A stretch of DNA of 64,000 bases, from positions 600,065 through 664,064 of the forward strand of contig JAQGDQ010000032.1 in the NCBI GenBank assembly GCA_030141605.1, written 5' to 3'. Source of the stretch: Tubiluchus corallicola (lineage: Eukaryota; Animalia; Priapulida). The position numbers and the translations under genes were made by a program. A model generated the notes under the pieces. The model was given only the letters and a program-made list of their open reading frames with translations, did not search any database and had not been told where the DNA came from. Positions 6,855-62,296 of this stretch are shown here, in pieces (position 1 is the stretch's first letter; the number at the start of each line of letters is the position of its first letter).

Positions 6855-9800
6855 ATGAGCATGAATATCCCCGAGATTCCCAGTCTACGTCAGGTATGTA
6901 CTTAGGAAAGCATTAAGTGGGATAATTTAAGATAAAAGATAATGCATTTCGTCCTAGGTTATATAAACATGGTGCTTCAAACAGTGCTACTAAAAATGAG
7001 TAACTACTTAGCATAGTTCAAGGCAGTGTATAATATTATAATTACTATTATTATACTTGTTATTACCTGTGCTTAAATACACTTTTACTCATAAATATAC
7101 CACATTTCAATTTTACTCAAGTACTCTGCTGTTGCAAATGTCACATTACAACAAAGTCACTAGGTTGCTGAAATTTTAATTTGCTTATTACGTTTGTCCA
7201 GATGCTTGATGAATGTTTAATGATATTGCATATGACTAGTTTGTTAGCGGGAAGCTGGTGAACGCGCTCTCCGTGGAAACGACACCTTGACAATTACGGC
7301 GTAAATCATTAATGACTCAGATTACATCTCTTTTCATCACATCGTTAGCCGCCTTGAATAATTGAGTTCTGAAAGTTTCCAGAAGAACCCTCAATAATTC
7401 ATTGTTATGTCATTATTCGACAGAATACTTGAATCGGATTGATATTTTTGGGTTAAATTAAGAACATGTTTTAGTTAACATACTCTCCTGTATATTAGCT
7501 GAAGTATTGATTGAATTTTTTTTTCAAGTTACAGATGTTGTACCTTTTTTTTCAAAATTTACTTTATTGTTTGACTTTGCTTTACTTTTCTTGAAGTTAT
7601 TGCTGTGCTATATTATATTTTTACTTTCTGATGTGTACTTGAATTTAGTATCAAATTAAGATTGCCAACTGAAGCACATTCTTCATCCAGACTAACTGTT
7701 TAAGTTATCCGGCTAGGTACACTGCTGGCACAGTTCTTGGTGAATTTGGCATAGTTCTTAATCCAGTCTGGGTCCTTGCAGCTGTTGTGAACAATATTAT
7801 GTTTTTGCTGTCTAAACTAATAATTAAAAATAAATAAGCAGAATTTTAAGAATAACATAAACGTATTTTGTGGCTTAAATACAAAAGATTTAGTGTTGTC
7901 AGTTTTTGTTTGCATCCAGTTCTTTTGTTGTTACCAAATAAGCATAATTTTTAGTTTATTTAGAAATAATTGGGTAAAAACTGATTACAAAAGACAAGAT
8001 TCTAATAAAAGTAATGAAATCTTTGAATGAGTTTTCAAGCTACTAAGTAGCATGTGGTAGCACCAACTACACACTGACAAATAGTGATTGTACGGTTTTA
8101 AGGTTTGCATTTGACTGGCTTTGTGGCATATGTGACAAAGAACTAATAATGCTTATGACATCTGCTGAGACATTTTGAGGTTAATTAATTATGCATTATT
8201 ATTCCTGTTTTGTCAGCATGATGTGATAAATTATTACTGTTCAGATTATCAGTGCCTACTTGACTAGTAGCACCGCTTTCTAGTTCCCAAATTCCTACAT
8301 AACTGAGTGAAAGTTTAAAGATTTGTTTTTTAGATTTTGAATTGTAACTAAATTTTGCAAATTTAAAAGAATGATAATAAAAATAACAACAATAATAATA
8401 ATAGTAATAATAATAATAATAATAATAATTTATGATTAATATTTATTGTTATTATTATTATTATTATTATTACTACTACTAGTTTAAGTATTAGTATTAA
8501 CTATAATATCATTTATTTACTTAAATAGTGTTGCAAACTAACATTTATTGTTGCATTATGTGACTTCATAGTTTTCATTAGATGTCATTTCTACTCATTA
8601 TATCTTGCATTGCGTTAATTGTGAATTGTGTGCAGAATATGGTATTATTACCTAATGTTAATAGTCAGAGTAGAGTAGTTCTTTGGTTTCGAACACATTG
8701 CCCCGTTATTATACTTGGTACACACCTGATCAGAAGTTATATCACTTAAATGTTTTTGAGTGAATTATACTGGTTATACTCTTCAGGGTTTTTTGCCAGC
8801 ACTGTTTTTGCGTGGATTTCCTTAGCAAATATTATCTTGTGTGACCGTAAATTCATCCAATTTTCATGCTGAGCTAACTCAATTTTGTATGAGGTTAATT
8901 TCCATCTTGTGCCATCAGTGATTAAACTCATGCAGTTTAATTTGCAATTACATGTATGTAGCAATTAGCAGTTTTCAACTATTTTTATGGTAGATAGTTA
9001 TAAGATTTTAATTACTTTTGGTATATGAATATGCTGTATTGTGCATTTAGGAAGGCGTGGAGCGTGATTTGGAAGAAATCATCGCTCTCATAGACGAAAG
9101 AGACAGGAAGATTTTTCAGATTCTTGCAGAAAAAGATGCGCAAATCAAAACATTTGAAGCCATTGTGAAGTCAGTTTCTACAAAGTCAGTTTCTGCCTTT
9201 GCTTTTAAATGTTATTTACTTCCCAAATTCCCTTTTTTTATTAAATTTATTGCTATTTATGCTGTTCAAGTTTGAAAAGATATGGGCATAATGCATTTTT
9301 CACTTGTGTTCTTACATGGAAAGGCGTGCATAACCATGTATAGAAAAACTAAATAGGTCTGAACATTGGAAAATGCCTCAATACTAAGCATCACTGCTTC
9401 GTGTATTGTAGTGTGACATAATCTAGACTCAAACTGAGTACAGAGTAGATATGTGTATTCTATCAGATTGTTATTTGCTGAGCTGAGTTAGCACGTGTGT
9501 GATTGTAGATGTTCCTTTGTGTGTTTTATCTTCAGTCAGTACATTGTTAACTAATTCTTTCGTTTTTACTTTCACCTAGTTTTACCTGCATTTTATTTTT
9601 AATAACACCTTTTAGGCAGCCTGCTAAAGATGATGTTGATGAGTCCAAATTCAAAACCGACGGTGAAAATCAAGCAGATTTATTGAAGTCACTGGAATCT
9701 CGAGACAAACTGCTGGAAGAAATCAAACGTGCTCATGGCGAAGCAGTTGACAAGTTACAACATGAAATTAAAAGTGAGTATTTTGAGAATTTGTGAATAG

Positions 9801-12800
9801 TGGTGCGCAGAAAAAATGAAATGGAAAAAATGGCACGAGGAAAAATGGCATATGTAAAAATACCATAGGAAAAAATGGTATGTATGTTATTTTGATGCTA
9901 GTGGTTTCTATAATAAAACTAGAATTTACTCAGCAGGAAGCAGATCTCTGCCAAAGCCAAACAATCCTAATGTTATTCACAGCCTCATTCTTTTCGTTCA
10001 AAAAATTTAACACAAAGGAAAATAAGCAAACGTACAAAAATGTACATGTATTGGTATTACATAGGCTAGCAAAAGACTCACAAAATATTTCTTCCTTAAA
10101 TGAATTTATAATCAATAATGCCCAAATGTTCCACATAGTGTTTAGCTACCTTTTCACCATTAATTTAGGTGATGGTAATAGACTGACAAATATATACGCA
10201 CCAAGTCATCTTATAGAGCTATACGCATTAATAAGCAAAGGTTATAGACAGTGTTAGAACAGTTTAACAAACAAAATTTTCTCAAAATAGAACCTGGAAC
10301 TAACTGGTAGTCTTTGTGGAGATAATAAAAAAGAACCACTAAACATTCTGTCTAAGACCTCCATGAAGTGCATCATGAACTTTTTTTGTACTTGGTGTTC
10401 AGTCAAGTTTTCCAAAAAAAGAACTGGCAAAAAGATTTTTGTTTATACCCACCTTTTCTTGGAAATCTGTTATCTAGTTTTTCCATAATAGGCTTACTGC
10501 CATAACAGACAAAAAACAACCAATCAACTAAACAAACAAGCAAACAGAGGTAAAAATAACTAAAATAATTACATCCCACTGTAATCCTAATCCTAAACAC
10601 ATACATTACTAAGTGTGCCATTTTTACCTGCTTTTCCATTTGTGCTATTTTTTTGTGCCATTTTTACCTACTTTCCCATTTGTGTCATTTTTGCTGTGCT
10701 GTTTTTTTCCAGTGCCATTTTACCTATTTTTCCATTTGTGTCATTTTTCCCTGTGCCATTTTTACCTACATTTGTGAATGGCACCATGTTCATCAAAGAA
10801 ACTTATTATTCTGCCTGGAAAATTAATAATTTTTACAAATTATGCCTAATGATTGGCCTGTATGATAGTAGCAGATGAGAACAATACTGGATTTATTTCA
10901 TTTGTTTTGTCATTCGTTTAGACCTATATAAGTAATTATTTGTGGTTTTTAATACCATCAGTAAGAACTGATAACTTTGTGTGTTGGCAATTGCCAAGTT
11001 ATTAGTTGTACTTCATTTTTAGAATTAGAAATCCAGCTGCAATTTGCTAAGGAGGAAAATAAATCTTTAAAAGATTCGAAGAATGGAGCTATGATAGAGT
11101 TAAAGGCTAAATTGAAACGTCTTGAAGATGAAAATAAAACTTTGCAGAACCGCGTGAGCAAAAGTAACAACAAGAAATTGGTATGTTAAATAGAGAACTT
11201 TAATATTTTCAAAGACTTATGTGATGGACCACATCACATAACATCACATTTTTTCTTGCTAATTCAGATTGTGTATCAGTAGAATAAAGCATTGAAGTGT
11301 TAATTGATCTTTCAGTAAGCTTTGTATTCAGAAACAGGTACACACAAACCACAAGGAAAACTCCGCATTTCAAAAGTCTTAGTATCTGTCTCACAACGTT
11401 ACCAAAGTTAAGTGCGCTTCTTACTCGTATTGCATAAGTTACTAATTACTATCACCCGCGAGGAACGCCATCATTACAACTTATTGCAAATAAATCATGG
11501 AGCAAGAGGCTCCAAAGTGAATAATCAAAGAAATATAAACATAATTTGTTTATATAATATGTGCATATGGTAGTATCGATTAGAATACTGTTATAGAATT
11601 GACCAAGATGGCAAATGTATCTGGCAAGATTTCCTTAAGACTGCTTAAAGTAAAAGCCAAGTCTCTCGGGAAGTTGATCTTATTTTAATATATGAGAAAA
11701 ATGTTAGAAAGTTTCACAATAAAATTGTGATCAGTGCCTCGTATAATTAGTGAAGTTAATTTAAAGTCGCGTTCACTTCGCACTTGAGTGCACTCATTTT
11801 GAACTAAAAATTGTCATCCAGTTACCATGAAGTTAACACTCACTCATTCCACCAGGACTTGAGCAATCCTATTTGCAGCTGCAGTTCAATTATCAACTAT
11901 TAACAAACAACGATGTTAAACTAAAGACTATTTTTTGGCTTTTTGATGAATCTCATTACTTACCGTGTAATAAAACGTAGTTATAATAACATGTAATTAA
12001 CACCAACAAAGTAATAAAATAATTATTTTAAGAAGCTAAAACTGAAATGTATAAACTAAGTAACTCGTCCGGCACCTGCTATGTAAATGCTCACAGAATT
12101 GCATGTTTATGTGAAAGTCAACAAAAATGTGTAAATTATTAATATATACACTGTACATTACTTGCAATTTTAAGGTGTATTCCTGTGAATTAAAGCTATG
12201 TAACAACATTAAAGTTCTTCCTAATTGAATCCAGTGAACTAATTTTTACATAAACTCAGTTAAAAAGTACGCTAGAATCATGGCACTTCTGAGTGAAAGT
12301 TTTGTAGAAAATTTGCAATGCATACCTTTCCGGCATTTATGGTGCCCACCTGGTTACGTCATTTTTTTCAAATACTGTATGCCCGTAGCGAGGTTTGTTT
12401 GGCAGGAGATAAGAAATATTTAAATTTCTTTTGCAATTTTGAGCAAGGCATTTTGTGTGCATATATTGTGCAAATTTCAATATTTTAATTGTATATGAAA
12501 ATTCAGTAAATGTTGTTCAATGGTTGGTTCTTCCTTTAAGGTTATGACAGAAGAAAAATATGATGTGAGTAGTATAGAATATAAGTGATAATACAGTAAT
12601 TTGGCTCCATAGGTAGATTGTGCTTTATTGTATGTCATTATTTATAATGTAACTTAATTTGTTGCAAAAGGTTGCTAACTGGCAAACACAGTCCATGGGA
12701 TACTTGTTATAAAACTGCTTCTGTACCATTTGTTTTCTACTTATTTACAGGCATCAGATAAACTCTGTGAGAATTGTGCTGAAATGGCACGCAAAATGGC

Positions 12801-15800
12801 GGAGCTCGAAGAGTATGTAGAGAAGCTGATGGATGGGTGAGAGACTGGGAAACTTATTTTAGCATAAACTAATATATAAGACATTCTGACTGGCTCCAAG
12901 TGTTGTGAAATATTATTATAAATGTGTAAAACAGTTTTTGCCTATAATAAACATTTACATATAATTTTAATGTCCATTCCTCTCCTACAAGATCACAGTT
13001 CCCGATGCATTATTATAAAATACCTAAATATGCTGCGCAGTCTCTTACACATATTATTTCAAATATGATCAACAAGCTCCTTGTTAATATTAAATTTAAG
13101 TTATTTAACAGTAAAATTTATGGCTTAAGCTGCATAGTTAAAGGATTAAGAGTATTGTCTCTCTTCTTATAGTGACTTGTGTAATATACCTGAGTGCTAT
13201 GTTGCCAACTACATTAATGTAACTTGGTGAACATTTTAATATGTCTCATTTTTAGAACTCTTGATGTCAACTTTATTAATAAAATGGAAATTTGCTTTTA
13301 TTCTTCAACTTTACTTGATTATGACTAGGACTGTCACAGACTCATTGATTGAGGCCTGTTTTTAAAAGCTATTGTGATTCTTACTTTTTAATCGAGTGTA
13401 TTTGAGAGTTTTATTTCAGAGTATCTTTTACGATAATTTTTGTATCACGTATAATATCCTGTTTTTCTGCTGGCTGCCATATCTGCGACCATACAGGCTT
13501 TTTGTGGAAGTCTCCATGACATAACATCTATGATTGGCACAATGTATGTGTAGCATACTTGGTCGAAAGTTGTTAAAATAGATTGCCTAATACTACTACT
13601 TATACTGCTACTGCTATGCTGCTACACAGATAAAATAATAATGAAACAAAAATCTCAAGCAACAAAGAATTGCTTTTGCAGTCCTTTAACAATGAATAAT
13701 TTTTTATAGGGTTGTGGAGGAAGAATTAACAGATGATAGTTATGTTCATGATGTTGTATCACTTGCTCACAATATGCAAGCGTTCGACAAGAAACTTCAA
13801 AACTGGATGAAAATTAAGATGATGAAGGTATTAAGCTCTTCTCATTTTACAACCAATTTTGGATGTATTGAAAACTCTGATAAAACAAAAAACTATTTTA
13901 TTTTTCAACTCTAAACAAACATAGAAAAATTTTGTATACAAATTTACATAGTTTTTAGCTACAGTGTGCAAATTGCAGTAAAAGCCTGCTGCTTGTGAGG
14001 AGGTGGATACGCTTTGTTCATGATGTAAATTGGTTGTAATAAATCGGCTTAATCCGCTGTTGTTAGGTATATAATTAGATGCTTCAGTGATTTATGAAGT
14101 GCTATGTTGGCTGTGTTCGAAGTGTCAGTAATGCCTGACTTCGCAAGTGTAGCTTGTATTATGTGGTCGTTTCTACTACATCTACTTGGCAGCAGAAAAA
14201 AATAGTTATCCAAGGGAGAGAGAGAGAGGGGGAGGGAGGGAGGGAAGGAGAGAGAGAGAAATTCATTTCATTTGTTTTGATATTTGTGATTTTAGCAGCG
14301 TCCTTTCACATCCAGCTTCAATGACTACGAAAATATTCCTGATGATGGTATTGGAATTCTGAAGCGTCATTTTCACAAAATGGCAAAGGAAAACAAGTTG
14401 CTCCTACGAGATTGTGAGCGACTGAATTCTCGCATGGCCAAGCACCGAAAATTGCGAGACCAGTTTGCACGTCTTCGGAAAGCACATGAGCAAGACCAAC
14501 AGAATATTGAAAATTTGACAACTGAATTGAACAATCATGCTGAAAGTGGGCGTTGGTTCTCATTTTTTGTTTTTATGCTAATTAAACATTTTCATTTTTT
14601 TATTTGTTTATCATTACAGCATAAGTTTGGGTAAAGTCAGAGATGATGAACCTAGCAATTCTTTATGGATAAATTTTCAGCTATTTACCATGTGTTGTGA
14701 CAAATGCCAATTAACAAACATATGTATCTCAATGTACTTGTACTGTACAGATAAGTAAATGCTTTGTCTGTTCGTGTTATTATTAAAATGTTGCCAAGTT
14801 GGTCATTTTTGCACTAGTCATAGGTTTGGTCCAAAGTATTTACTCGCTTTGTTGTTCTTGTTGTTTTACATCCTTCATATAAAGCTGTAAGTCTTCATAA
14901 TAAGCATATTAGAATGTTTGCTGGATTGCTAGTGTAACAAAATAGCTGATGCCTTTTTGCTCAATCTAGCAGTCTCTAAGTGCAGTGTGGTTGTTGCAGG
15001 GCTCATGGCTGAAACACTTGTTCCCCAATTAATACATAAATTAACTCCAAAGGCTGAAATGTGAAGCTGAGAGCTGGGAACTTTGTTTATTGTAAACACT
15101 TATTTAAGAAAAGGAAATGCTTTTGAAGTCCAAAACAAAAACAGATGTCAATGTAATGAGCTGTACCTGAAGTTGAATCTTCCTTCTCAGTCTTTTCCTC
15201 TCTCTGTTTTTTAACAACGCCAGAACAGCTTTTCTGCACCTGTCACTGTGCATGGGTGGTAGGTGAACAAAGTAACTTTGCAAAATTGGCTGAGTGTATC
15301 ATTTGTTGGTGCCACTTCTGCAGCTGGAGAGTGGTACCAGTGCCGTAAAAATATGTAAGCAATCAACATTATGAAGTGGAAGAAAAAATGCATGGTTTGG
15401 GAACCTGATTTCATATAGAAAAAATCATTTAAACTGTTAGCAAACTCAGCTGAAACTAATGACTAAGATTCATAAGAGATCTAGTATTATGTACACTGAG
15501 AATTCCTGACACAGCAATGGGAGCTTTTCTCAACTTCTATTTTTGGGGATAAGCCCCAGAAATTTCAAGGTAGTACTTTGCTTTGTGAAATGGAGTGTAG
15601 TTTTCAATGCTGATGTAAGCATATCGGAATGCAAATTTTGATTTTCCTCACGTGCGTATTACGCGAAACTGACCTGAAGGGTACTTGTTTATAATTGTAA
15701 ATTGTAAGTTGTAATTATAATTGTATAATGCTATCACAAAAAAACATAAATATAAGTTTTATGTTTATCTATGTATCAGATATTCGTCGACTTCATTGAG

Positions 15801-18800
15801 GGTAATTACTATCCCAGAGATCATGATTTTTTTCCAAAAAAAATTGAAGTAGAAATCTAAAATAAATTTCTTTAGGTACCTATGCTTTGTTGAGTGTTTG
15901 TACAGTTTGTGAAACTTAAGAACTAGGTTTTATTTTATTTGTCTGCACTTTTTTTTAGCAACCAAACACAAAGTAGAATTAGAAGTATGCACCTCAGTTT
16001 TACAGCAAGAGGTGTTAGTGGGTTATATAAGCCTCTGCAGTTAATGCTAAATATAGTTCTTGTAATATTTTTGTACCTAGTCTATAATTGCACAGTTTTT
16101 TACATTATTAGTAACTATTGTTAAGCATAAGTATTAGTAATTGTCTGAAAGCAGCTTCTGTGTTTGCTGGAGTGATCATTGGTCAAATCTCATTATAATC
16201 CCCCCCCCTTTATAATGCTAGCTTCGCTTAATGGCCAAATGTTTGGCAAAACAATGTTTATATTTGCGTGGACATGTATGTATTACTACACCTCCTTATA
16301 ATGCCAAACTCGCTTAATGCCAACTTTTTTTGCAGTGCCAAAGTAGATTTTATAAAGAGATTTGACTGTATTGGTTTATTACAGCTTGACTATCAGGATT
16401 TGTTACACGTATTAAAAAAACTTATTTTTACCAAGATTTACGTTTTATACATTTTTCTACTTTTAGCACTGAAGTTAAATCAAAAAACAATAAAAGAGTT
16501 AGAGAAGCTGCGTCAAGAGAAATTTAATAGAATGGCCTCTGCAGAGAATAAGAGTTTGATGTTAGAAAAACGCCTTAAAAAACAACTGGAAGCTAATGCA
16601 GCATTAGAAAAGCATAACAAAGAACTAAGAGCACAAACCAGGTATGTTTTTAAAGAGAACTTGGCAAAAGCTATAAATTGGCCTTGTATGTAGTTTTTTT
16701 TACAAATAACTGTGCCACTTCCTGGTTTCAAGATGCGTGATTCACTGAATTTAATGGTTAAGAATGATGAAGTGAAAATCTTAGGCAAAGTAGTACTGGG
16801 AAGGAGGAAATGGCTTGTCCACGGAATGGCATGGTAGGCCACCAAAACAATGCTAAAGCAGTCATTTTTAACTTTAATGTTTTTGAGGCGGTTCAGATAA
16901 ACTTGTTATAAAAAGATGTTGGCTAATTTCACTATAGTGTTGCTATAAATAAAAGATGGAATTTAAAACGTGCAGCCCCATGATATGATCAAAGCTGGCA
17001 AATAATTGTTAAGAAAAAATATGGATCTGAGCAGCTACATCAAACAATAAAAGTTGTTTGATTATAAACATTGTATTTTGTTTTAAATTTAGCATTTTAG
17101 TGGCTAGATCACAAGCGGCATTTACACCGTCCACCTTGATCACGTGACACACTTTCTCACAAACACTAACTCGCTCCAGTATATACAAGCCTGTAAAACA
17201 TGCACAATGAGTGAATTTTGAGTGATTTATCGGTAATTCCGGAAAATGCATCGTGCTACAAGCCAACCAAGCTATAAGAACTTGTCTAGTAAATCCTTAC
17301 AAAGAGCACTTAATTATTGTATTATGCAACCATATGTGCATTATATCAAGATTTATTGCGAAGTTTCAAACATAGTTACAATAAAAGTGCTAGATATAAT
17401 AAAAGTTACAACAAACTACTAAAATAACAAATATGAAATAGTGTGTTAACTTTGCTTTACATGTGTTGTAAATCAAAATTTTTATAACACGTAGTTACAC
17501 CAAAACAAATTATTTTAGTGTCCTGTACTTAATTCTGTGATAAACACGAAAACTGAATAAATTAAATAAAAATCAAGTAAGATAGCCCAGCTGAACTATT
17601 TAACTATACTACTGAACGTTCACACAGTCATACTCAACCAACGAAATCCTATTTTTTGCTGTACAGTATTTGCACTATCATGTTGCATTGTGTTGTCCTG
17701 ATTTAGCAGGACACATTCTATAAGTAGCCAGTAGGAATAAATAATAGTACGATTCTTAGAAAACTTACATATAAGTAATCAGAAAATTTCTCTATGAGCA
17801 GACAGCACAATTTTTATTAATTTTTAATGGGTTGAGCTGTTTATGTGGCCTCCCGCATGCTTTGACCCAATGTTGACACTTGTCTAAGTCTTTTTTGGGT
17901 TGGCGAACTTATAAGTCCTTCTAATCTTTCTGGATAGCGAACATCCACATTACAATGTGCCCTAAGCACAACGCTTCACCATTCTTCACTACTATTAACG
18001 AATTTTAGCTGCACAAGGTTTTTTATGGCAAGAAAAAAGCAAAAATAATCATGAACACACGCTTTAGCTGTAAACTTCGTATAGGCTTTAGGTGCAAATG
18101 TGGCTGGGTATGTGAGTAATGCCCCCAACAATCCGAGGCACCAACAATCGAAAAACAATAGCCCTACATAAAAGCATCTCATTGGTCATTGCGAGGTCAT
18201 TGGTCATTTCTTGCATACTTTCAGGTCTCTATTCAGCAGATGCAATCATTTGAAAGATAACGTCAAAGAAGTTTTGAACGATCGTGTCAGTGATGAACTG
18301 CCAGAGGACAGATATCCACATAATCGCAGAGCACGAAGCTTGTCTCCAAAAAGAGTATAAAAATAATTTAATTTTCACTTACAAGGAAAATGCAGTCATA
18401 ATTACTGCTCACTAGAAACCAATGCCTAGCTTTCGCTGGTTGGATCTGCTGCTTTGCATGTTCTATTGACCACTGAACAAAAACTCCCCCTTATGAGATA
18501 AAAATTTTTTTGTATTCTTCATAGTTGGCTCCTTATGAGATAAAATTTTTTTCTTCACATTTCTGTTTGAACCTAGTGTCTGATGCCTAATATATACAAA
18601 CTGTGAATGCATCTAGTAACATTTTTTGTTTGTAGGAGCCTGACGTTGATTTTGAGGAGGACCCAACTGTTAGATATAAAAGGCTAATTCGAGCAAAAAC
18701 ACCACAACCTAGACGTCAGAGATCAAAATCGTGCATCTATAACAAACCTAGGAGCAGCCAAACTGCATTGTCCTTAGGAAATAAACTGAGAAGCTTAAGA

Positions 18801-27856: not shown

Positions 27857-28228
27857 CAGAAATGGAGCTACGTCATTTCTTAGACTCTCAGTTTAAAAGT
27901 TCTTGTACTATTTTAATATTTCGGAGTTGCAAGTTTTGAGCATTTTCTAAGTGTGGTATAATTTTTACATATTTTTATTTTTATATTTTTGTTATATATA
28001 TAATTTTCCATTTGTTAAATTGGTGTAAAATGAAACGTGTCTGTGGTGTCATGCATTCGTTACTTAAAATGTTACTTTTCAGGAAACTTAATATTAGTAT
28101 TAATTTTGTATCAACATGTCTATTTTGTAAAATGTTTTTTACAAATATTTACTTACATTATTTACTTATAAATAAAAACTGAGATTATTCCAACAGTGCA
28201 TATCACGATAGAGAGATCTTTGGTGAAA

Positions 28229-47200: not shown

Positions 47201-47441
47201 TCCATCCTGATCTATAAAGATGTTTAAACCAACATCTATTTCCAAATCGACAGTAGCCGTCCATTTCAAAATTCCTACAGGCTATCTGTGATTTGTTATT
47301 TCTACTTACTATTCTCCTCTCTTGCTGTTTTCTGTATACATTTCTGTATGTATCTCCTCTGTTTCTATTTGTTTTGTCATTGTCCTTTTTTTCACTGATT
47401 TCATGTTCAAAATAGCAAACATCTAGTAGCAGCAAGTACAC
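44230..47441 (-). mobile_element. Decayed non-LTR retrotransposon (LINE) with CCCH-finger ORF1 and APE-RT ORF2
   Basis: ORF1 remnant CRNFEMDGYCRFGNRCWFKH (47013-47441). APE motifs FYANYRGIKSK (~46750), GGGLL (~46325), GDFNGKI (~46080), LDY, YSDHNTI (~45655). RT N-terminus IPKEWKQITIKSIYKGKGSKWDIANRRGIF (44675-45103). C-terminal RLNRVDVNGNY..CPIC (44383-44628). Frameshifts and stops present; RT core missing. Confidence 0.9.
46332..46593 (+). mobile_element. 5'-truncated LINE tail inserted into the APE domain of the older LINE
   Basis: Interrupts NRLNG-K-GGGLL on the minus strand; ends in aataaa followed by (aattga)n short repeats. Confidence 0.55.
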
Positions 47442-47789
47442 TGACCCACTTCATCTCTAAGAATGAGCCCCTTTGAAGAAATGTATATATCTGAGTAGTT
47501 TATTAGGTACTGAAGATTAGGTACTGGCACACAGCATGCAGAAAAATGTTAGCCTTGGCTGCATATTCTAAGTTTTGATATCACATAGAACCTGTATATT
47601 CTTGTATGTTTGTATAATTGGTGGATTTGGATAATTCTGAATTATTGTATCATGATTTAGGTAGACACAACTCTAAATTATTTCTACAGTACTCTTGCAC
47701 TAATATCAGAGCCAGTTTCTTCTCTTATCATGTTGTGAGCCCCTGGAATTCAGTTAATAGTGAAATTGTTGAAGCATCAAATGTGGCTC

Positions 47790-48270: not shown

Positions 48271-48289
48271 TGATAATGGTAGACTGGAA

Positions 48290-51761: not shown

Positions 51762-51822
51762 GTTGCCTGCAACCTAGAATAAGTCAATGCTTGGCTATAG
51801 AAAAGACGGTTTCCATTGAAAC
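51762..51822 (+). promoter_or_regulatory. RFX X-box-like motifs upstream of SAXO
   Basis: GTTGCCTGCAAC (51762-51773) and GTTTCCATTGAAAC (51809-51822), 160-220 bp upstream of the ATG of a ciliary gene. Confidence 0.55.
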
Positions 51823-51978
51823 GCTGCTGATGCTTTTTGTGTTCCATAGTTGCTGAATGCTATTTTCTGTCAACACACCAGGTCATTTCCTGACATGTCC
51901 AGTACCAGGTAAAACTTTCTGGCTGACTGATTAAAAGGACAACTTTATTAGCACTAATCTCATCAAACAACCATTGGC

Positions 51979-54900
51979 ATGACAAGAAAGAAGTGCATTT
52001 GCCAGATTTGCACGTGCGGGTGAGTAAATAAAGTGTTTACTAGGAGGCTAAATTTGATGATTTTAAACTATCATTTAGATTCCTGACTTTTTTAAGGAAA
52101 GCATTGTATGTCTAAACTTGATTAATAAATCAGGAATTAGAACTGATGTTTTGATTTAAAAGTATAGCAGCAAAAAGCATTGATTTGAAATATTTTATCA
52201 TGATAAACTTGAAGTAGTCAGTTCCTGCTTGTCTTTTAATCTGCCATTGTGTGATTGTAAAAGATAATTGATAAGGCAGTGCTGCAGAGATGGGGCAGCC
52301 CTTAGTTCTCCTGATATAAAACTGATCGTTTTTTATTAGATTCTGCAGCTACTGTTATGTGGCTATAGATATAACATATAATGCTATAAGTATAGATTTT
52401 GGAATAATCTTACACCAACTAGTGTTTTTGGTAAAACATGCTCAAGTTATACAACACATTTCAATGTTGAAATAAAACCTTTTATAAACCTAGCAAGTAA
52501 ATGTTCTCAAACTTTGTATGGAAAGATTATTAATTCTATGATTAATCTATTTCATGCTATGTCTATGTTAAACCCCATATCGTCGATAAAAATTATCCCT
52601 TCTTTAACTGAATTGATCTTAAAAATGGATATTAATTAACTGTGCATGGAAATTTGTTTTCAGATATAAGTAATCGTAGTAAATACATAGATATAAGACA
52701 GTTCACCAGAACAAACAAACCTTGTACAGTCCTAAATTTAGAACCAATAAAAACCTTAAACCTCCAGTATTAGGTGGTAGCCCAATTTTCAGAGTGGCTT
52801 CTAGAGTAATTTGTGAATCTGTTATTAACTGTTTTGAGTTGTTTGTACTTCGTGTCCCTAATGGTACGCCTACCTATCCATTAAATTACCAGTTTTTCTA
52901 ATTGTTCTTTATTATGGTTAGCTACCGTGAAATCATTAACGTATTAATGGCATTGTGAGGTGAATTATGACTGACCAGAATATCGCATTAATGTGTGGCT
53001 AATGAAATTTCCTCCTGCAGTATTGATTGTCAAGCTTTTCTTTTGTCCTGCAGGTAGAAATGTTCAATTGGGTATTTTTAGTACATACATACACACCTTA
53101 CTACTACGGAATTTGCATATTCGCATGCAGATATTGAGACAAGCTTTTGTGCACTCAGTTTTTGCTAGTTTTTTCTCATTTAATATTGATTATGCATGTC
53201 TTGTAAATTACTCTGTATGTGGCACAAGTCATGCGCATATATCAGGATACAAGCATTTCACCACTGTATGCAAATGACAGCAAAATCTTTTTTGAAAAAG
53301 TAAAGGATAGTAATAAATAATGATACCGACCAGAACGTGAAAAATCCAGGATCCTTGAAGAAGTTCAAGTCCAAGTCCACTGCTCAAGATTCAAGTCCAA
53401 GCCTTTTAAGTTAACACTGGGAAATGTAGATAATAAATAGCATTATGGTTGTTATACATACAATGTAGGTATTAGTCAGGTATGTAATATGTAATTAATT
53501 ATTACACAGACAGAGACATTTCATCATAACTTTTATGCTTAAATTGCACATTGCAAACCACTATTCATTTTCGTACACACAAAATCTTTGGCAGTCTCCA
53601 GTAAGATTGTTGCTTTAATGCATATTAGCAAGAGACACATTTCTGCAGTTCGAGTCTGAGTTCCAAGAAAAACTTGCTCAAGTGCAAGTTAATGAGTGGA
53701 GGCTTTACCCTCTGATACTGACTCCATAAATATTATTATTTGTTTTTTGTACTACTTTTTAGTGCAATATATTTGAGCAGTAATTCTTTTATTGAATTTA
53801 CTACATATTTTTTGTGCTAGAGCAGTCTGCAGATCAGTTCCACTAGCTTTATGTCATTTTTAATATCAATATAATAAATCAGCTTGATATCATTTACTCT
53901 GACTAATTAGCTAATGTTTAACTGTCTACTTAAATTACTTTCCCTAATTTTTTAATTTGTTTTTCACATAGGCGACATCATTGCCCACACAAAGCTACTT
54001 CTAGTGTGATGCAGTTCGATGAAACTGCAGCTATGGATCCAGGAGTCAAAGCAGCTCCACCTATGCCACAGAAGAGGGAGTCACCCATCCGCCCCAAAGA
54101 AAACAATGTGAACATGGACTATGGGCAACCAATGCAGTCTGTTACTACAGCTCGGTAAGTTCACACATTTTTGTTGTGGTTTTATTTGCAATGATGGAAT
54201 AATATGCCTAAGTTCCTCTGTTCCTCTGTTAAAAATATAAGAAAATGTATGTGTTTTATTACCACACGAATTAAAATAATTACTTTGCTATTTCGTGCAC
54301 CGACTTTTCACAAATTAATTTTAGAATATAAATTAATTATTGGTTGGGTAAACAATTAATAAACTTGGCTAACTAATTACCTAGAACAAAGTTTCAAGAA
54401 TATAGGCTTTCATCCTCTGACTGCATTTGCTAAATGTGATTTAGGAGCATATACTTTGTGGCAAACGTGCTCAAATTTTAATATTGTTTGCTGATAATAG
54501 CCTCCTGAGTGGGCTCTTCTGACTCAATTGTAATTCAATACAAAGCTAGAAAACAGTTCATTTTCATTATATTTGTTTTTGCAGTTACGTAACATTTAGT
54601 CACAGAAATAGTGCTTGACAGCTGCCCACGTATTGATGTTAAGGCATTTTCATAAAATAAAGTTTCCATGGCAACTAAACATTTTCTAGCTTAGCAAATA
54701 TATCACATTGTTTAGAGGTGCTCGCTTAGACACATACACAATCTGTTGAATTTCCAGTTGCAACAACTCAGCAAGTGGCATTGGAATATCAAGATTTGGA
54801 TATTGCTGATGCTGCTAAGATATTATAGTATTTTTGCAGTGCATTATTGTTGTTCATTTTAATAATGTGATACCGATCATTATTTAACTGACAACAGCAA

Positions 54901-57900
54901 AAATGTGAAACATTAGTTTACAGTAGTTAATGTCAAATTTCTACAACTAAAAACTTAAAAGTTCAGTTTAGTGAACTATATTTTCAGTAAATTATTTTCT
55001 CTCATGTGCTAGCGAAGTAATCATGACAATTTTAATTCTCTGGCTGAAGACAATTAATGGTAACACTAATTATGCACCCAAAAATATATAATGTGTCTGT
55101 GATGTGGTCTAGTTCCCGTGATAGGTGCAGTTGATAACTGGCTAAATTTCAAGGTCACTGCTTATTTGTAGGTAGAACCTAATTACAATCTTAATGCTAG
55201 TATCCAAATGAGACTTTGTACATCTAAATGTGTACAAAAGTACCTGTTTATCTATTGTTCATGTTGTCCTTTTTTACTTTTTTAGAGGAGACTACCCTGC
55301 ACATCATGTTGAGCCAGTCCAGAGAGTGAAAAACTCTTCTGAGTATCATCCACCTACAGAAAAATTTGAAGGAAAATCATCATATAAAGAAAATTTTACA
55401 GGTTTGTGTGTTTCCTGTGGTTACATTTTTATATAATTTGCACTGGTCTGCCATAATTTTAGACTAGAAGCATGTCAATTATGTAAATCGTTATTTGCTT
55501 AATTAAATTATTTAACTTCTTTTTCAATTTAGATGCTCAGCCAGAGAAAGTGAAGCCCATCAGACCGGTGGAGAATATGGTACAGTCAACAGGAAAATTT
55601 GAAGGCGAGCCAACGTCGCGATGTATGCTACTTATAAAACTTCTTATAAATTGAGTTGATATCAGTTATCTGTAGTTACATTAATTTGAATCACCTTTAA
55701 TGGTAGCCACAAGAGGCTAACCTTTTCTTAATACTAAAAACGCTTTTAAGCTGAGGAAGTCTATGTTAGTATGTTTTAATGTGCATTTCTTACTATTGGT
55801 CCCCAGAAGTGTTTACACAGTGAAGCTGCATGCAGTAACCTTCTTTTTCTTGGCTTTATTGATTGTAATGACTATAAAATTTTGCTTGCATAATATTTTA
55901 AGTGTTACAATATAGCTGTAACATGAATTGCAGCTGCATTAATTACATATTTTTGTCAGAATGTTTTTTTTAAAAATGCTCAGGTCTACCTGCAGAAGAG
56001 AGCAAGGGCATTGTCTAAGTTAATTGACGTCAAACACATTGGTTTATCGCTCCGCCTCCGCTGCAATGTAAGCACACTCAGCGGCATTCGGGACAATAGC
56101 TCACGCTGGACAACAACTGTTTAAACTAAATTAAACAACATGACAGTCACAATTAATGTCTAATCAGCAGGTAAACTGATTGCACTTTTTCATAAACACA
56201 AATTTGCATAGCAGCAGCTATTTTTACACGAAATTAACACTTCAAGTAGCCAAAAAATCACATTTCAATTTAAACAGAATGTAGAGAATGAAGTTTCAAA
56301 GCACTACAAAATGTAGAGACATAAGTATAATAAAAAAAAAACTAAGCCAGTTAGCCTTGCTTTACAATAAATGGGCAACAAAATATATTTATGAAAGTCT
56401 CTTTTGTCTTTGAATATATGATAAGACATCATACCTGTGATGTAATTTTTCTAATTTTAACTAATCATGTGGTCGTTTGCAAGCTTTTATCCATTTTTTT
56501 CATTTTTTCAACTGTTTGTTAGACTACAGAAATGGAATAAATTTGATTATTTTATTCCGTAAACGATCTTGCCCAAGTTACGTAAGTCATAAGTCTGAAT
56601 GATATCTTTTAATTATGATTATGACCAGGAAAATAGTATAAAATTGACTATTTCAGAATACAAATTTTAGATTGATATATAACATAAATTTTGATATTAT
56701 TTGAATTAATTTGGACTGTGAAGGTCTTATTAAGGTTTATAAAAACTGACCAGAAAAGAAAACATTTTGCCTGAATGTGAATTCCGATGAGTGTGCTCGC
56801 TTACCACATAATCCTGACAGTTGTCATGTATTCCCGTAGATGAGTTCAACTCTGCCACAAGGCTTCATCTACTGCTAACTGGCCATTCCTACAACCTGCG
56901 CAAACCTCCTTGAAAGTACTCATGCTGTAATTTTTACATGCATGTTAACTTTGAATCATTATACATGCCAACTCGGGCTTCAATATAAATATAATCAATG
57001 TAACGTTATAAATGTCACCTCTGTTTTAGTAAGCCATTTTACATTTGCGATCATTAAAGCAGCGTCATATGATCGGCTTAATTAACCTCGTTGAGTTCAT
57101 TTGTATTTTTTAAAGTTGACACTTTTCTTTATCCAGCTTGCAAGGTCGTACATTACACTTAACTACGTATATTATTAATAGCAAAATCAGTAACTCATAG
57201 ACGCAAGCGCTGCGCATTTCTTCCTATAAAAAAGAAATTATACTATGTATTTACACTAATTCACATGCAATTTTAACCGACAATACAGACAGTCGACAAC
57301 CTGTAATAAGGTCTAAAACCTGGCTGATTTCCCTCCCGCAAATTTATGATAAGTTGAGCATTTTTCGTAAGAATATACTGACAATACATAGTTAGAGCTC
57401 TTGTTCTGAAAGATGAGGTAATGAACCGGTTCTGTGGGCGTGTGAAAAATAGGCACACTGATTGGACATTCAGTAGAGCTTGACTGAGAATGATTGACAC
57501 TTTGTTTGACGTCAATTGCTAGACTGTCAGAAACAGTAAGCGTGACACGTCTGATTAAAATCGAACCAAATTTGCTACTTTCGACTCGAATAAAACCTAA
57601 TTTCGAGATTTGAACACACAACTATGTTCTAACAAGCTTCACTCAGAATCGGAAAAAACAGACCTTCTGATCTAAATATTTATACATGATCTCTATTTAT
57701 AGTAATAGCTATTCTAAAATATTAGCAAAAATTGAAATTGAAAGAAAAGAACAGTTGACAGTCTTTCTATGCACTTTTTGCATAGAGTCTGATAATGTTA
57801 GATTCGGTTATTAGTATTAATTCTGTTAGATTCTGCTAAGTCAGTGCACTGTAAACAAAGTGCTTTACAGCATTTAATGCAGTATTTGTTATAAGGTTTT

Positions 57901-60900
57901 GGATGTGAAGGTACTCCATGTAGTCAAATTCATAATATCGCAGTGAACTTAATTTTATTGTTTCATTGTTGCTGCAGTACTGACACAAAATTGGAAATCT
58001 GTTGTCTGTGGCACTCTTGAACTGTGACGTCCAAGTGACTTTGCAAAATCGCTATCTGTTAGTTGAAGTTATTTTTGCTTTTTGCTAAATAAATTGTGTT
58101 CAAACTTTCATTGATTTTTTGACACTAACAGCACTGTATTAGTACTAGTAGCATTGAAACCATTTGCAAAAACAAATACTGTATTGGATAAACAGTTTGA
58201 AATTATGAGACCTCTCACTAAATTGTGTACATTTACACTGCAGATAGTAGCTTATGATATTTTTATATTGATGCTTTAAAATCGACTATAACTAATCAAT
58301 TTTGCATATTAACATATATAATACGTTATTTTAGCTGATTATAAACAGTGGGATGCAACTCAGCCAGAACGTGTGAAGAAGCAATCGGATTATTCACCAC
58401 CAACAGAACCTTTTAAAGTACGATGTGTTAGATGTGTGTTAAGTTTTATTTCAGCATTGCTGTAGTTGCTGTGTCTTAGGCTGGCAGTGATGACAGTGTT
58501 TGCTAGCTTGACTTATGCTAAAATTGTTAAGAATTTTGAAAGGTTTTACATTAGTACTACCAAGTATCATGTAAAAAATTCTTATTCTTAATTTAGAAGT
58601 GCTTATCATTGGCTCGTACTGAATGTGTCAGATTTAACTATGTTGGATGGGCTACAGTAGTTGAGTCACTTTCTTGGTCATTTTTTCATATCTTTAAATA
58701 TCTATTTGCAGCAGTCGGATAGCACTTACAAGGAAACGTACCCTGGTTATACGGTACCAAAGCGAGAGAGTATGAAACCAAAGGAGCAACCCGTAGCTTC
58801 AGGAGCCCCGTTTGATTCTACTACATCTTCTAGGGAAGACTATAGAGAGCATCCTGTGTCAGCTAGGTATAATAATCAATTTAGTGGCATGGTTTTGTGC
58901 ACAAAGTCAAAACTGTTGTATTGTATATCATATGTCGTATTAATGGTTGCTAGGGATGAGCATCGGACATTCGACAAATGGAATTTGAATGCTCAAATTC
59001 GATTAAAACTAGTTTTTTATCTAATTAGATTCAAACTTAAAACTATAGATTCTAATAATTCAGCACTTCTACTACATACATTCTTTATTGTTAAAACATT
59101 GAAACATTATGCAATCAGCAGAATTTAGTTGTAGTTACTGTGCAAAAATTTTTAATGTTTTTACTGCAGAATAAAATCAAGTAATATGCGTGACCTTAGT
59201 GAGGCCGCATTTTATTAATGAGTCGAAAATTTATTTGAAAATCTTTGAACTGAATTGGAATTCGATTCGAATTCGAAATCTCAAAATTCAGTTTTATTCG
59301 AATCGAAAGTAGCAAATCGATTCGATTTGAATTCGCTTTTTGGCAGAGTATGCTCACATAGGTCCAGGTGTTCAGTGAGAGCTAATGAGAGAGAAAAGTT
59401 TCCTACTCAAGGTGCTGAACTCATGGCCTTCTGTGCACCAAATGTTATAACTGGTAATATTGTACCACTAGTCAGCTAGCATACAGAATTAATGTGGCTT
59501 GTCTTAACATGTCTGACTTGCAGTCAAAAAGCATTATTTTTAATATATGGGATGGGCAATGGGCAACTTCAAAGGTTTCATTGTGCTTCTCTGGTTGATT
59601 ATAATTCTTCTAGGTAATGACATTGAAATGAATCAGTTGGCCAATGTATTTTCAGCTGCTATAAACTAATAGTAATTAATAGCAAGGTAAGTTTCTTATT
59701 GTTTGAGTTGATTGTAGAAAAATGAGAGAAAAGGAGGAATATAAACCAAATCCTATTAAATTTGATGCTCAGTCGACAACAAAAGAAGCATATGGTTCCT
59801 ATCCCGTTACCGGGAAATCTCAGAGTTTCAAGCCAGAGAACAAACCAGTTTCTTCAGGAGAAAAATTTGAAGGTCGCAGCACCATGCAGGAGGAGTTCAA
59901 ATCTCACCCGGTCCAACCACCCAAACCAAAAGTAAGATTCTTCCATTAACTATATAAAACTAGTTAATGCACTTACATGTGGGTACTTGACAAACACTGC
60001 AATCACATTTACAATATTGTTCGTAGTTCATGTATGCAGGTTTTCTCACATGGTACTAACCTACCCTAGCATATTGTTAAGTTTGTATACATTACAGTAA
60101 CTGTTTTGTAGTATTTTCCAAGTCACTTAACAAGTGACTGTCAAGGTCGTTTACCTCTTAATGATTGAAAACTGAATACATACACATTGTATTTGCAATT
60201 GTGCACCCATAGACTGTACCATGTCAGCCATGTCATACACTTGCGAAATATTGATCGTTAGCTTTTTTGTAGCTTTTTTTGAAGTGTGAGTGGTATGATT
60301 TCAGAAAAGCACGAAATTTTTTGGATGGCATAGTTATACAAGATTTCAATTTTTCTATATTTATACAGGAAGACCTGGTTAAAAATAGTGAAAATTAAAT
60401 AATTCAGAAATCCCAGTTTCCCATGATTTTTCTGTTAGAACTAGAAGTTAAGTCTCTGTCTATTAAATGTGTACTATGTAATTATAATGTACACCAGTAT
60501 TACTAACTTTGCTCTCAGAATTTTATGCAAACTAGTCATTGTGTGTTTTCTAGGAAAGAGCAAAATGGCAGCCTTCTGGCGAAAAAATGGAAATATATAG
60601 TTCAAATAAAGAGGATTTTCCTGATCATGGTGTCGTCACCAAAGCACAGCCGATCCGGCCTACTAGTAACAGGTATAAACAGTAAAGTAGCAGTGCCAGC
60701 ACAATCTGCATAATATTGGCACTTCATGTGATGTGTAATTTAGGGTAGTGAACTTAATGTGTTCACTAGGTTAATTTTACAAAAAGTATTCGTGATAGAA
60801 TAATTTGTGTTACTAATCTTAATATGATACTGTAAACCCAAAAAGGCTGACCAAAAACATTGTGCAAGAAAGCAAAAGTTATGTGCTGCAAGCAGTCTTA

Positions 60901-62296
60901 ATATCTAGCAAGTTTAAAATATGTTTGTAATAAATTAGTTACGCTTGATAGTTTAAACTTGTTTCTTGCTGCTTTTGAAGCTACGCATCTGATGCAAAGA
61001 TGGACAATTATTCCACAAGTCGCCAGGATTACAAAATACACTCGGGTGTTGAACGACCAGCACCAGTAAAAGCACAGGACAGTTACAAGCCACCTGAAGG
61101 CAGGTTAGTAAAGCTTAGCATTTCAATTTCTTTTATATGTGGTTTTGAGTATAACTAAACGTATGATTTATGGCTGCATGTAATATGCCTATTTTTTCTG
61201 TAAAGTCCTGCTGAGGTAAATACATATATTATATATATTATATTATTTTTTTCTAGAAAATTGTTTCTTGTTTAGTCATATTACATTAAACTATCTCTTT
61301 CATTTGCAGGTTTGAAGGTCATACTACAACGAGGGATGCATTTCAAGGTTATCAACCAGGAACAAAGCGAGAAAGTTTTAAGCCATTGCAACAGGCTGTT
61401 AGTAGTGGTGCACCATTTGAAGCAAACACTGAAAGTAGAACTGCATTCGGAGTTAAACCTGTAAGTCGTTTTTATTTACTTGGTCAAATTTGATTGTCAG
61501 CATAAGCACTAAGTTTTAGGCCTTTTTATTTTTCATGTTGTGTCAAACCTGTCACCATTGTTTGTCTTTCACTAGTTTACTGGACGCGCAAATTTGGAAA
61601 ATGCACTAAATTAGAAAGTTTTCCATGTTTGCAGGAAGTAAACAGCAGTAGCAAAATAGGTTTTCCCTAGTTTTCCCAAACTTTAAACATGCAATATAAA
61701 AACTCGCATTTTATAAAGGTTTAAACACACACTCAACTTTCTGACCAACTTTTGATGTCTCGGGTATCATTTCGTTCTTTGATCTTTGACATCTATTTCT
61801 TTAATGCCTCGGGTATTTTTCGTCATTTATTTTTTAGTTGTGGCTTTTCAGTGTTTAACATTTAAATGCTTATGCTTCTGAGATGCGAATATCAGATTGT
61901 GCGAACTTAATTTTTCTCAATAATGTATCATAGTTTTACATCTAGATTGCACTTATGTACAGCACTAAAAATTTATGCCAAAAATTTTTTTATTGATTTT
62001 AACCATGGATATTCAAAACAAAATCAGTATACCATAATTACTTGAGTCCCCATCGAGGGCTCAGAAATGTTAATTGTATAACGTCTCATTCGGAATTAAG
62101 CAATTGCAATTCTGATGTAACACTCTTTAGGATATTCAATTTACTTGATATTGCAGCTTTTAGTTGTCAATTTCTCTTGCAGGTAAATGTTTGTCCTGCT
62201 ACTAAGCTAGAGAATGAGGCATTCCGTTCCGAGGATCCTACTGGGCATAGATTTTATGAGGTTCAAAGCCGCCTTGGCTATGCATCACCACAGTGA
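51979..62296 (+). CDS. SAXO: Stabilizer of axonemal microtubules (SAXO1/2, FAM154) homolog, 11 exons
   Basis: Exons 51979-52019, 53972-54154, 55286-55401, 55533-55622, 58335-58417, 58715-58866, 59718-59931, 60554-60672, 60981-61103, 61310-61460, 62183-62296 join in phase. N-terminus CICQICTCGRHHCPH; 11 Mn-like repeats (e.g. FEGKSSYKENF, FDSTTSSREDY, FEGRSTMQEEF); C-terminus CPA...GHRFY. Confidence 0.93.
54662..54675. promoter_or_regulatory. Consensus RFX X-box in SAXO intron 2
   Basis: GTTTCCATGGCAAC. Confidence 0.5.
58951..59361. mobile_element. hAT-like MITE rich in TTCGAA motifs
   Basis: Starts tagggatgagcat and ends atgctcacatag; many ttcgaa/ttcgat units. Related pieces at ~24988-25080, ~57558-57620 (inverted) and ~62820-63117. 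Confidence 0.6.

What the first reader, a model, noticed from the sequence alone, without database searches (positions are those of the whole stretch)
6855..62296. CNTLN-EFL1-SAXO: candidate ancient microsyntenic block with a conserved head-to-head EFL1/SAXO pair
Seen: centlein-like (+), EFL1 (-) and SAXO (+) are consecutive, with EFL1 and SAXO divergent. Recalled knowledge: human EFL1 is directly head-to-head with SAXO2 (FAM154B) at 15q25, and CNTLN lies near SAXO1 at 9p22; these regions are paralogous (SH3GL2/3, ADAMTSL1/3, BNC2/1). Inference: this window may preserve the pre-duplication state, with reciprocal loss in vertebrates. A housekeeping ribosome GTPase flanked by two centrosome/cilium genes suggests a long-retained shared regulatory region.
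Basis: partly seen in the sequence, partly recalled or inferred. Interest (0 to 1): 0.8.

Follow-up and report, generated by a model that had tools for sequence, protein, structure and literature searches.

The report
Likely ancient EFL1-SAXO back-to-back gene pair
In this invertebrate a ribosome-assembly gene (EFL1) and a cilium-stabilising gene (SAXO) are neighbours facing away from each other, as in vertebrates, so the pair is likely an old inherited gene linkage of a well-known kind, but no second invertebrate could be checked and a shared control region is not supported.

Summary
The three genes are real, intact and consecutive: a centlein-like gene (+, 17 exons, 850 aa), EFL1 (-, 21 exons, 1131 aa) and a vertebrate-type SAXO (+, 11 exons, 462 aa). 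EFL1 and SAXO diverge; the centlein-like and EFL1 stops are 372 bp apart. Vertebrate links were confirmed from records: EFL1 beside SAXO2 (lizard, human), CNTLN near SAXO1 (turtle), and 9p22/15q25 as ohnologous. Chance of the pair is about 1 in 2000 under a shuffle model, so inheritance is likely. Limits: only two lineages show it (the field's standard is four); no other invertebrate's EFL1 5' neighbour could be read; a published 49-genome screen puts a SAXO-family gene beside PI4K2/TCERG1 in seven invertebrates and lists no CNTLN-EFL1-SAXO block; centlein's known ancient partner (BNC) is replaced here by torsin; the order differs from the vertebrate one. The start codons are 10 kb apart with a retrotransposon remnant between, and RFX-type sites sit at SAXO, not near EFL1, so a shared promoter is not supported. 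Verdict: probably a new example of a known kind of conserved gene pair; modest interest.

The parts
6855..27856 (+). Centlein-like coiled-coil gene, 17 predicted coding exons, 850 aa (first exon least certain)
   Evidence: In-frame GT-AG model; collinear with Priapulus caudatus XP_014667944 = P0265 (168 bits, 29% over 665 columns; 50 block shuffles at most 31.6 bits); Atlas names the three nearest clusters of P0265 centlein, 0.95-0.96
28229..41975 (-). EFL1 (elongation factor-like GTPase 1), 21 predicted coding exons, 1131 aa; a splice acceptor ahead of the ATG implies a non-coding exon further upstream
   Evidence: Last exon: 625 hits; all named ones among the best 120 are EFL1/EFTUD1 or unnamed/hypothetical records; tblastn and spliced model; Pfam GTP_EFTU, EFG_IV
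42401..44200 (.). CpG-rich zone, likely EFL1 promoter region
   Evidence: CpG observed/expected 0.73 for 41976-44300 against 0.48-0.54 in the three gene bodies and 0.32 for 47.5-52 kb; function inferred
44400..47450 (-). Decayed LINE-like retrotransposon between EFL1 and SAXO
   Evidence: CCCH zinc-finger ORF at 47016-47450 (Pfam zf-CCCH E 3.7e-06) followed by frameshifted pieces read by eye as endonuclease and reverse-transcriptase-like (the two pieces scanned gave no RT or endonuclease Pfam hit)
51809..51822 (+). Near-perfect RFX-type X-box 157 bp before the SAXO start codon
   Evidence: 1 mismatch to a recalled consensus; 3 matches at up to 1 mismatch against 0.49 expected
51979..62296 (+). 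SAXO of the vertebrate SAXO1/2 type, 11 predicted coding exons, 462 aa, 11 Mn-type motifs 33-35 aa apart, N-terminal Cys cluster and C-terminal CPA...GH motif
   Evidence: PDB 8ou0 SAXO1, E 6.5e-12; best 185 bits to frog SAXO2, long mollusc-type forms at most 142
54662..54675 (+). Perfect RFX-type X-box in SAXO intron 2
   Evidence: 2 exact matches in the window, 0 in 100 shuffles
20273..20286 (+). Perfect RFX-type X-box inside a centlein intron, between long inverted repeats
   Evidence: this site was seen before the pattern was chosen
2612..3649 (+). Single-exon torsin, the 5' neighbour of the centlein-like gene (outside the finding; sits where BNC would be expected)
   Evidence: Pfam Torsin E 1.2e-48; homologues

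Best explanation
EFL1 and SAXO are adjacent and divergent here, and this pair was likely inherited from the common ancestor of this invertebrate and vertebrates, with centlein likely a relic of the same old neighbourhood rather than part of a fixed three-gene unit. Shown: three intact genes, their orientation, and the vertebrate links. Inferred: the ancestral stretch held BNC, CNTLN, SAXO and EFL1 close together; local inversions and insertions reordered it while the EFL1-SAXO pair moved as one unit (turning the pair over relative to CNTLN converts this window's order into the vertebrate one, into which SH3GL and ADAMTSL are inserted). After the vertebrate genome duplications one copy kept BNC2-CNTLN-SH3GL2-ADAMTSL1-SAXO1 and lost EFL1, the other kept BNC1, SH3GL3, ADAMTSL3, SAXO2 and EFL1 and lost CNTLN. 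The pair most likely persists because the interval between the two 5' ends carries both promoters and is a poor place to break, not because one promoter drives both: here EFL1 would start from the CpG-rich zone at 42.4-44.2 kb and SAXO from its own RFX-type site about 8 kb away.
For: Lizard EFL1 C-terminal piece JD844_014499 and SAXO2 JD844_014501 (KAH0620006/KAH0620008) share one contig; human EFTUD1/FAM154B called adjacent at 15q25.2 (PMC6630005 passage); mouse Eftud1, Fam154b, Sh3gl3, Adamtsl3 in one QTL interval. Turtle CNTLN and FAM154A in one block on one scaffold; human BNC2 and CNTLN at positions 45 and 46 of chr9. SAXO1/2, ADAMTSL1/3 share ohnolog ids; SH3GL2 chr9 17.58 Mb and SH3GL3 chr15 83.45 Mb are ohnologs. 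The window's SAXO has the vertebrate-type ends and motif register, unlike 5 of 5 long mollusc-type forms. Shuffle model: 0.00025-0.003 for the pair, 1e-6 to 6e-5 with a third gene of the same neighbourhood; 0.3-1.25 chance 5'-5' matches per genome against hundreds of truly conserved pairs per genome in Irimia 2012 (inputs are my assumptions). X-boxes at SAXO, none at 42.4-44.2 kb even at 2 mismatches.
Against: Only two lineages; Irimia 2012 demands four. In Robert 2022 a SAXO-family gene sits in a bilaterian block with PI4K2, TCERG1 and TACC in 7 invertebrate species (8 of 11 rows of that orthogroup), no EFL1 is named in the 60 of 80 rows seen, and CNTLN appears only in 2 vertebrate rows; which SAXO paralogue that is was not testable. 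The SAXO tree does not join the window to the vertebrate clade with support. The human head-to-head orientation and the mouse gene order are recalled, not shown by a call. The animal's phylum is unresolved. No transcription starts were seen.
Confidence: 0.55

Rival explanations
1. The pair is inherited and is held by one bidirectional promoter in the CpG-rich zone at 42.4-44.2 kb; SAXO would begin there with a non-coding exon and an 8-kb first intron into which the LINE inserted.
For: A possible acceptor lies about 28 bases before the SAXO ATG; CpG is depleted over 47.5-52 kb (0.32) as in a methylated intron, and the only broad CpG-rich zone in the spacer is next to EFL1; most conserved pairs are 5'-5' (54.8% in human).
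Against: An X-box 157 bp before the SAXO ATG and another in intron 2 point to local control; no X-box in the CpG-rich zone; low CpG also fits old transposon DNA; a housekeeping gene and a cilium gene need different expression (general knowledge).
Confidence: 0.2
2. One reading: CNTLN-EFL1-SAXO in this order is the ancestral block, kept together by shared cilium/centrosome regulation.
For: All three genes map to the 9p22/15q25 ohnologous segments; centlein and EFL1 stops are 372 bp apart, so 3' UTRs may overlap; both flanking genes hold perfect X-boxes; the published screen also misses the known BNC-CNTLN-CCDC171 block in the rows I could search, so its silence is weak.
Against: Vertebrate order differs; BNC is not 5' of centlein here; 3 of 4 long EFL1 loci have Tub-family or ubiquitin-conjugating/proteasome genes 3' of EFL1; a two-sequence centlein profile found nothing in the 3' flanks of 40 loci (21 of them 1 kb or longer; best E 1.0); no such block in 49 genomes.
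Confidence: 0.13
3. Coincidence or hidden paralogy: genes of one ancestral chromosome were shuffled and a SAXO copy landed beside EFL1 independently here and in the vertebrate stem, the ancestral SAXO address being next to PI4K2.
For: SAXO-PI4K2-TCERG1 block in amphioxus, hemichordate, starfish, brachiopod, limpet, annelid and centipede; several SAXO paralogues per invertebrate (3 centipede rows); a scan of many windows will meet some chance matches (about 1 per genome).
Against: Needs the right gene, the right orientation and a third gene of the same vertebrate neighbourhood by chance (1e-6 to 6e-5); the window's SAXO is the vertebrate type.
Confidence: 0.12

Closest known systems
Conserved ancestral microsyntenic pairs (CAMPs), Irimia et al. 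2012, PMC3514665 (passages read; Table S2 not available)
   Same: Two unrelated genes adjacent in 5'-5' orientation in a vertebrate and an invertebrate lineage.
   Different: Seen in two lineages only, not four; the spacer here is 10 kb with a retrotransposon remnant; whether the pair is already in their list of 595 could not be seen.
Human/vertebrate EFL1-SAXO2 at 15q25.2 and CNTLN...SAXO1 at 9p22
   Same: Same gene families; EFL1 next to SAXO; CNTLN within a few genes of a SAXO.
   Different: All three together here; CNTLN is tail-to-tail with EFL1, with no SH3GL or ADAMTSL between; vertebrate orientation of the pair and short spacer are recalled, not shown.
GRB 113 [BNC2=CNTLN] and GRB 114 [BNC2=CCDC171], Touceda-Suarez et al. 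2020, PMC7530604 (Table S1 rows, part 1 of 5 of the text)
   Same: CNTLN as member of an ancient block thinned by differential loss after the vertebrate duplications.
   Different: BNC is not beside centlein in this window (torsin is); no developmental regulator lies in the window, so this is not a GRB.
Block 3089 (FAM154A-PI4K2-TCERG1-TACC) and block 1643 (vertebrate CNTLN-FAM154A), Robert et al. 2022, PMC8851819 (supplement rows, methods section)
   Same: SAXO-family genes in conserved bilaterian gene neighbourhoods.
   Different: Different partners; EFL1 is not named in any stored row; CNTLN-SAXO is classed there as a vertebrate novelty.
SAXO1 (bovine, PDB 8ou0; bioRxiv 10.1101/2022.09.29.510157, passages)
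   Same: Mn-motif repeat microtubule inner protein of about 470 aa with small end domains.
   Different: 11 motifs matched here against 12 reported for bovine SAXO1; about 30% identity to vertebrate SAXOs; single pre-duplication copy type.

Membership tests
EFL1 | EF-2-like G domain with intact motifs, domains II-V and the EFL1-specific C-terminus; best hits EFL1 | tested here: met
SAXO1/2 (PF05217) | Tandem Mn motifs about 33-35 aa apart | tested here: met
   11 motifs by my own pattern, in register with frog SAXO2; PDB SAXO1 hit; single exons give only sub-threshold PF05217 scores
SAXO1/2 (PF05217) | N-terminal Cys cluster and C-terminal CPA...GH motif of the short vertebrate type | tested here: met
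   Both present in the window and in 8 of 9 vertebrate rows (the ninth lacks the N-terminal match); absent from 5 of 5 long forms
SAXO1/2 (PF05217) | One-to-two orthology to vertebrate SAXO1/2 by gene tree | tested here: inconclusive
   No starred set holds the window; long branch; no short-type invertebrate SAXO of known species in the set
Centlein (CNTLN) | Collinear homology to proteins named centlein | tested here: inconclusive
   Two-step: window to Priapulus P0265 (E 1e-44 locally), P0265 to centlein clusters 0.95-0.96 with CCDC171 next at 0.94. A single exon gave only generic coiled-coil hits. No named centlein sequence could be fetched for a direct or reciprocal test; motif likeness to vertebrate centlein is recalled only
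Centlein (CNTLN) | Centrosome localisation, linking C-Nap1 and Cep68 | not testable with these tools
   Known function seen only as a reference title
CAMP (Irimia 2012) | [quoted passage not shown] | tested here: inconclusive
   Two lineages shown; no other invertebrate 5' flank readable
CAMP, co-regulated class | 5'-5' orientation | tested here: met
   vertebrate orientation recalled, lizard tag order is consistent with EFL1's 5' end facing SAXO2
CAMP, co-regulated class | Short intergenic distance (under 1 kb between starts) and co-expression | tested here: inconclusive
   ATG to ATG 10,003 bp, but transcription starts are unknown and no RNA was available
Microsyntenic block (Robert 2022 definition) | [quoted passage not shown] | tested here: not met
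   No invertebrate CNTLN row and no EFL1 name in the stored supplement (file cut at 4 million characters)
Genomic regulatory block | A developmental transcription factor whose enhancers lie in bystander genes | tested here: not met
   None among the four genes in the window; BNC absent from the 6.8 kb 5' of centlein

The most novel reading that the evidence does not exclude
This animal keeps an unlisted piece of the last common bilaterian ancestor's gene order: EFL1 and the short SAXO have stayed back to back for over 550 million years beside centlein, showing that Urbilateria had two SAXO genes (one by PI4K2, lost in vertebrates; one by EFL1, parent of SAXO1/2) and that a constitutive ribosome-assembly promoter and an RFX-driven cilium promoter have shared one interval ever since.
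Probability: 0.35. Interest if true: 0.5.

Novelty: new member of a known kind. Interest (0 to 1): 0.35.

Why it matters
If confirmed in more phyla it adds one more pair to the several hundred known ancient animal gene pairs, extends the known BNC-CNTLN neighbourhood to SAXO and EFL1, gives a clear case of reciprocal loss after the vertebrate genome duplications, and offers a positional marker to sort SAXO paralogues, which sequence trees resolve poorly. The housekeeping-plus-cilium pairing is a handy test of whether such pairs need a shared promoter. It does not point to a new kind of system.

Tried and rejected
No whole genome is held. No RNA holder listed; run X1 behaves as DNA and X2 holds next to nothing, so splice sites and starts were not observed. 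Metagenome scan with the last EFL1 exon: 40 loci, none reaching usefully past the EFL1 5' end; tblastn with four SAXO proteins and P0265 gave no hit in them; their records are not held for extension. The same query found nothing in genome contigs or viral contigs; the SAXO first exon was too short to search. EFL1 hit list was almost all vertebrate, and no invertebrate species gave both an EFL1 and a SAXO record. PDB has no relative of P0265. Supplements: Irimia 2012 not available; Simakov 2015 and Chen 2021 gave 0 hits, the latter with only 13,560 characters held; Lamb 2021 and Robert 2022 files were cut when stored; 20 of 80 rows of block 3089 unseen. Ten paper searches listed no paper on conservation of this pair or triplet; only listings were seen for most. 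Phylum: torsin tree of 43 rows joined the window to Priapulus (97/91), but a 22-row tree left it open and did not reject amphioxus (p 0.43) or hemichordates (p 0.14) as sister; the EFL1 tree only excludes vertebrates, with no priapulid row. Torsin-centlein linkage is not supported in Priapulus: records lie on contigs of 742,863 and 294,782 bases. Vertebrate contamination rejected. Pseudogene rejected: all three models are open end to end.
Full report
Observation. The window is AT-rich animal DNA with four host genes. A single-exon torsin lies at 2612-3649 (+) (Pfam E 1.2e-48). A coiled-coil gene runs 6855-27856 (+): 17 exons chain in frame through 16 GT-AG introns to 850 aa. EFL1 runs 41975-28229 (-): 21 exons, 1131 aa, 52-53% identical to Solemya and Latimeria EFL1. 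SAXO runs 51979-62296 (+): 11 exons, 462 aa. So the order and strands reported are right. The coiled-coil and EFL1 stops are 372 bp apart; the EFL1 and SAXO ATGs are 10,003 bp apart, with a decayed LINE-like element at about 44.4-47.5 kb (CCCH-finger ORF by Pfam; the rest read by eye). The models are predictions: no RNA of this species was available.

Identities. EFL1 is firm. SAXO matches bovine SAXO1 in the PDB (E 6.5e-12), has 11 Mn-type motifs 33-35 aa apart in register with frog SAXO2 (12 are reported for bovine SAXO1), and carries the two end motifs of vertebrate SAXO1/2 that 5 of 5 long mollusc-type forms lack; its best scores are to vertebrate SAXO2 (185 bits against at most 142), but the tree gives it no supported place. 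The coiled-coil gene is divergent: its best exon hit 1 protein among 1.84 billion representatives, a Priapulus protein that aligns collinearly with the spliced model (168 bits; shuffles at most 31.6). The Atlas names that protein's three nearest clusters centlein (0.95-0.96), with CCDC171 at 0.94. Centlein is therefore likely but shown only in two steps.

The animal. It is not a vertebrate. The centlein hit and a 43-row torsin tree (97/91) point to priapulid kin, but a 22-row tree left this open and did not reject amphioxus or hemichordates as sister. The age of any shared pair (bilaterian or only deuterostome) hangs on this.

Vertebrate side. Lizard EFL1 (C-terminal piece) and SAXO2 carry tags 014499 and 014501 on one contig; a human study calls EFTUD1/FAM154B adjacent at 15q25.2; a mouse QTL lists Eftud1, Fam154b, Sh3gl3 and Adamtsl3 together. 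Turtle CNTLN and FAM154A share a block. SAXO1/2 and ADAMTSL1/3 are ohnolog pairs, BNC2 and CNTLN are consecutive, and BNC2=CNTLN is a listed ancient block with BNC1 as unlinked copy; SH3GL2 (chr9) and SH3GL3 (chr15) are ohnologs. The human head-to-head orientation and the order BNC, CNTLN, SH3GL, ADAMTSL, SAXO, EFL1 for the pre-duplication segment rest on my recall of human 9p22 and mouse chr7. On that order the window differs by one inversion of the EFL1-SAXO pair and by lacking BNC, SH3GL and ADAMTSL: same neighbourhood, not the same block.

Invertebrate side. The decisive test could not be run. Of 40 EFL1 loci from metagenomes (taxa not determined) none reaches usefully past the 5' end. Of the 4 with 7.5 kb or more on the 3' side, two have a Tub-family gene, one a ubiquitin-conjugating enzyme and a proteasome alpha subunit, one nothing identified; a centlein profile of two sequences found nothing in any 3' flank (best E 1.0, while the Priapulus protein finds the window's last two exons at about E 0.001). 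In Robert 2022 (49 genomes, blocks of three or more genes) the SAXO orthogroup has 11 rows: 8 rows in 7 invertebrates lie in a block with PI4K2, TCERG1 and TACC, 2 in another centipede block, 1 in the vertebrate block with CNTLN; CNTLN has only 2 vertebrate rows and EFL1 is not named (file cut, 60 of 80 rows of that block seen). This counts against a widespread triplet. It is silent on a two-gene pair, and invertebrates have several SAXO paralogues, so the PI4K2-linked gene may be another one.

Chance. With random order on a chromosome of 500-2000 genes and 1-3 SAXO copies, the divergent pair has probability 0.00025-0.003, and 1e-6 to 6e-5 with a third gene of the same vertebrate neighbourhood; about one chance 5'-5' match per genome is expected (my assumptions), against 197-842 conserved pairs per genome in Irimia 2012. 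Inheritance is thus much likelier than coincidence, though two lineages fall short of that paper's four.

Mechanism. CpG observed/expected is 0.73 just upstream of EFL1 (42-44.3 kb), 0.48-0.54 in gene bodies and 0.32 ahead of SAXO, which marks a likely EFL1 promoter. A recalled RFX consensus matches exactly at 20273 (centlein intron; seen before the pattern was set) and 54662 (SAXO intron 2), against none in 100 shuffles, and with one mismatch 157 bp before the SAXO ATG; none lies in the CpG-rich zone. The simplest reading is two promoters about 8 kb apart: a constitutive one for EFL1 and an RFX-driven one for SAXO. A shared promoter with a long non-coding SAXO leader is not excluded, since both ATG exons have possible acceptors upstream.

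Comparison and verdict. This works like a conserved ancestral 5'-5' gene pair; membership by the four-lineage rule is unproven. It is not a genomic regulatory block. Ten paper searches listed nothing on this pair's conservation, but Irimia's Table S2 could not be seen and may hold it. Papers seen: PMC3514665 passages; PMC3585141 and PMC6630005 passages; PMC4729200 and PMC7817982 supplement searches (no hits); PMC8040251 supplement rows; PMC7530604 supplement rows and part 1 of 5 of the text; PMC8851819 supplement rows and part 4 of 7; PMC8435291 one reference line; bioRxiv 2022.09.29.510157 passages. Likely a new member of a known kind; interest 0.35.

Noticed in passing
window:2612-3649: Torsin is a single intact exon among intron-rich genes; a relative has a 91% identical protein. 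Possibly an old retrogene or intron loss.
   Followed up: partly
window:27856-28229: Centlein-like and EFL1 stop codons are 372 bp apart; the only plus-strand AATAAA is at 28171 and a minus-strand one at 27974, so the 3' UTRs may overlap by about 200 bases.
   Followed up: partly
window:19527-21773: Long inverted repeats (69 and 110 nt, 90-96%) bound about 2.2 kb of a centlein intron that is CpG-rich and holds a perfect X-box: DNA-transposon-like element or internal promoter.
   Followed up: no
window:44400-47450: Decayed LINE-like element with a CCCH zinc-finger ORF1 and a 131-bp internal tandem duplication at 45818-46079.
   Followed up: partly
window:54662-54825: Perfect X-box in SAXO intron 2 followed by a 32-codon open frame: possible internal promoter of a shorter SAXO form.
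   Followed up: no
L027:15512-19871: 3' of EFL1 in another animal lie a ubiquitin-conjugating enzyme and a proteasome alpha subunit head to head. By recall they resemble CDC34/UBE2R2 and PSMA4, whose human genes lie on 19p13/9p13 and 15q25, the same ohnologous chromosomes as EFL1.
   Followed up: partly
L006:5284-7670 and L021:9347-12716: In two loci with different GC content EFL1 is followed on the same strand by a Tub-family gene: another conserved EFL1 neighbour.
   Followed up: partly
window:57570-59317: 42-nt inverted repeats 1.66 kb apart flank two SAXO exons, in different introns.
   Followed up: no
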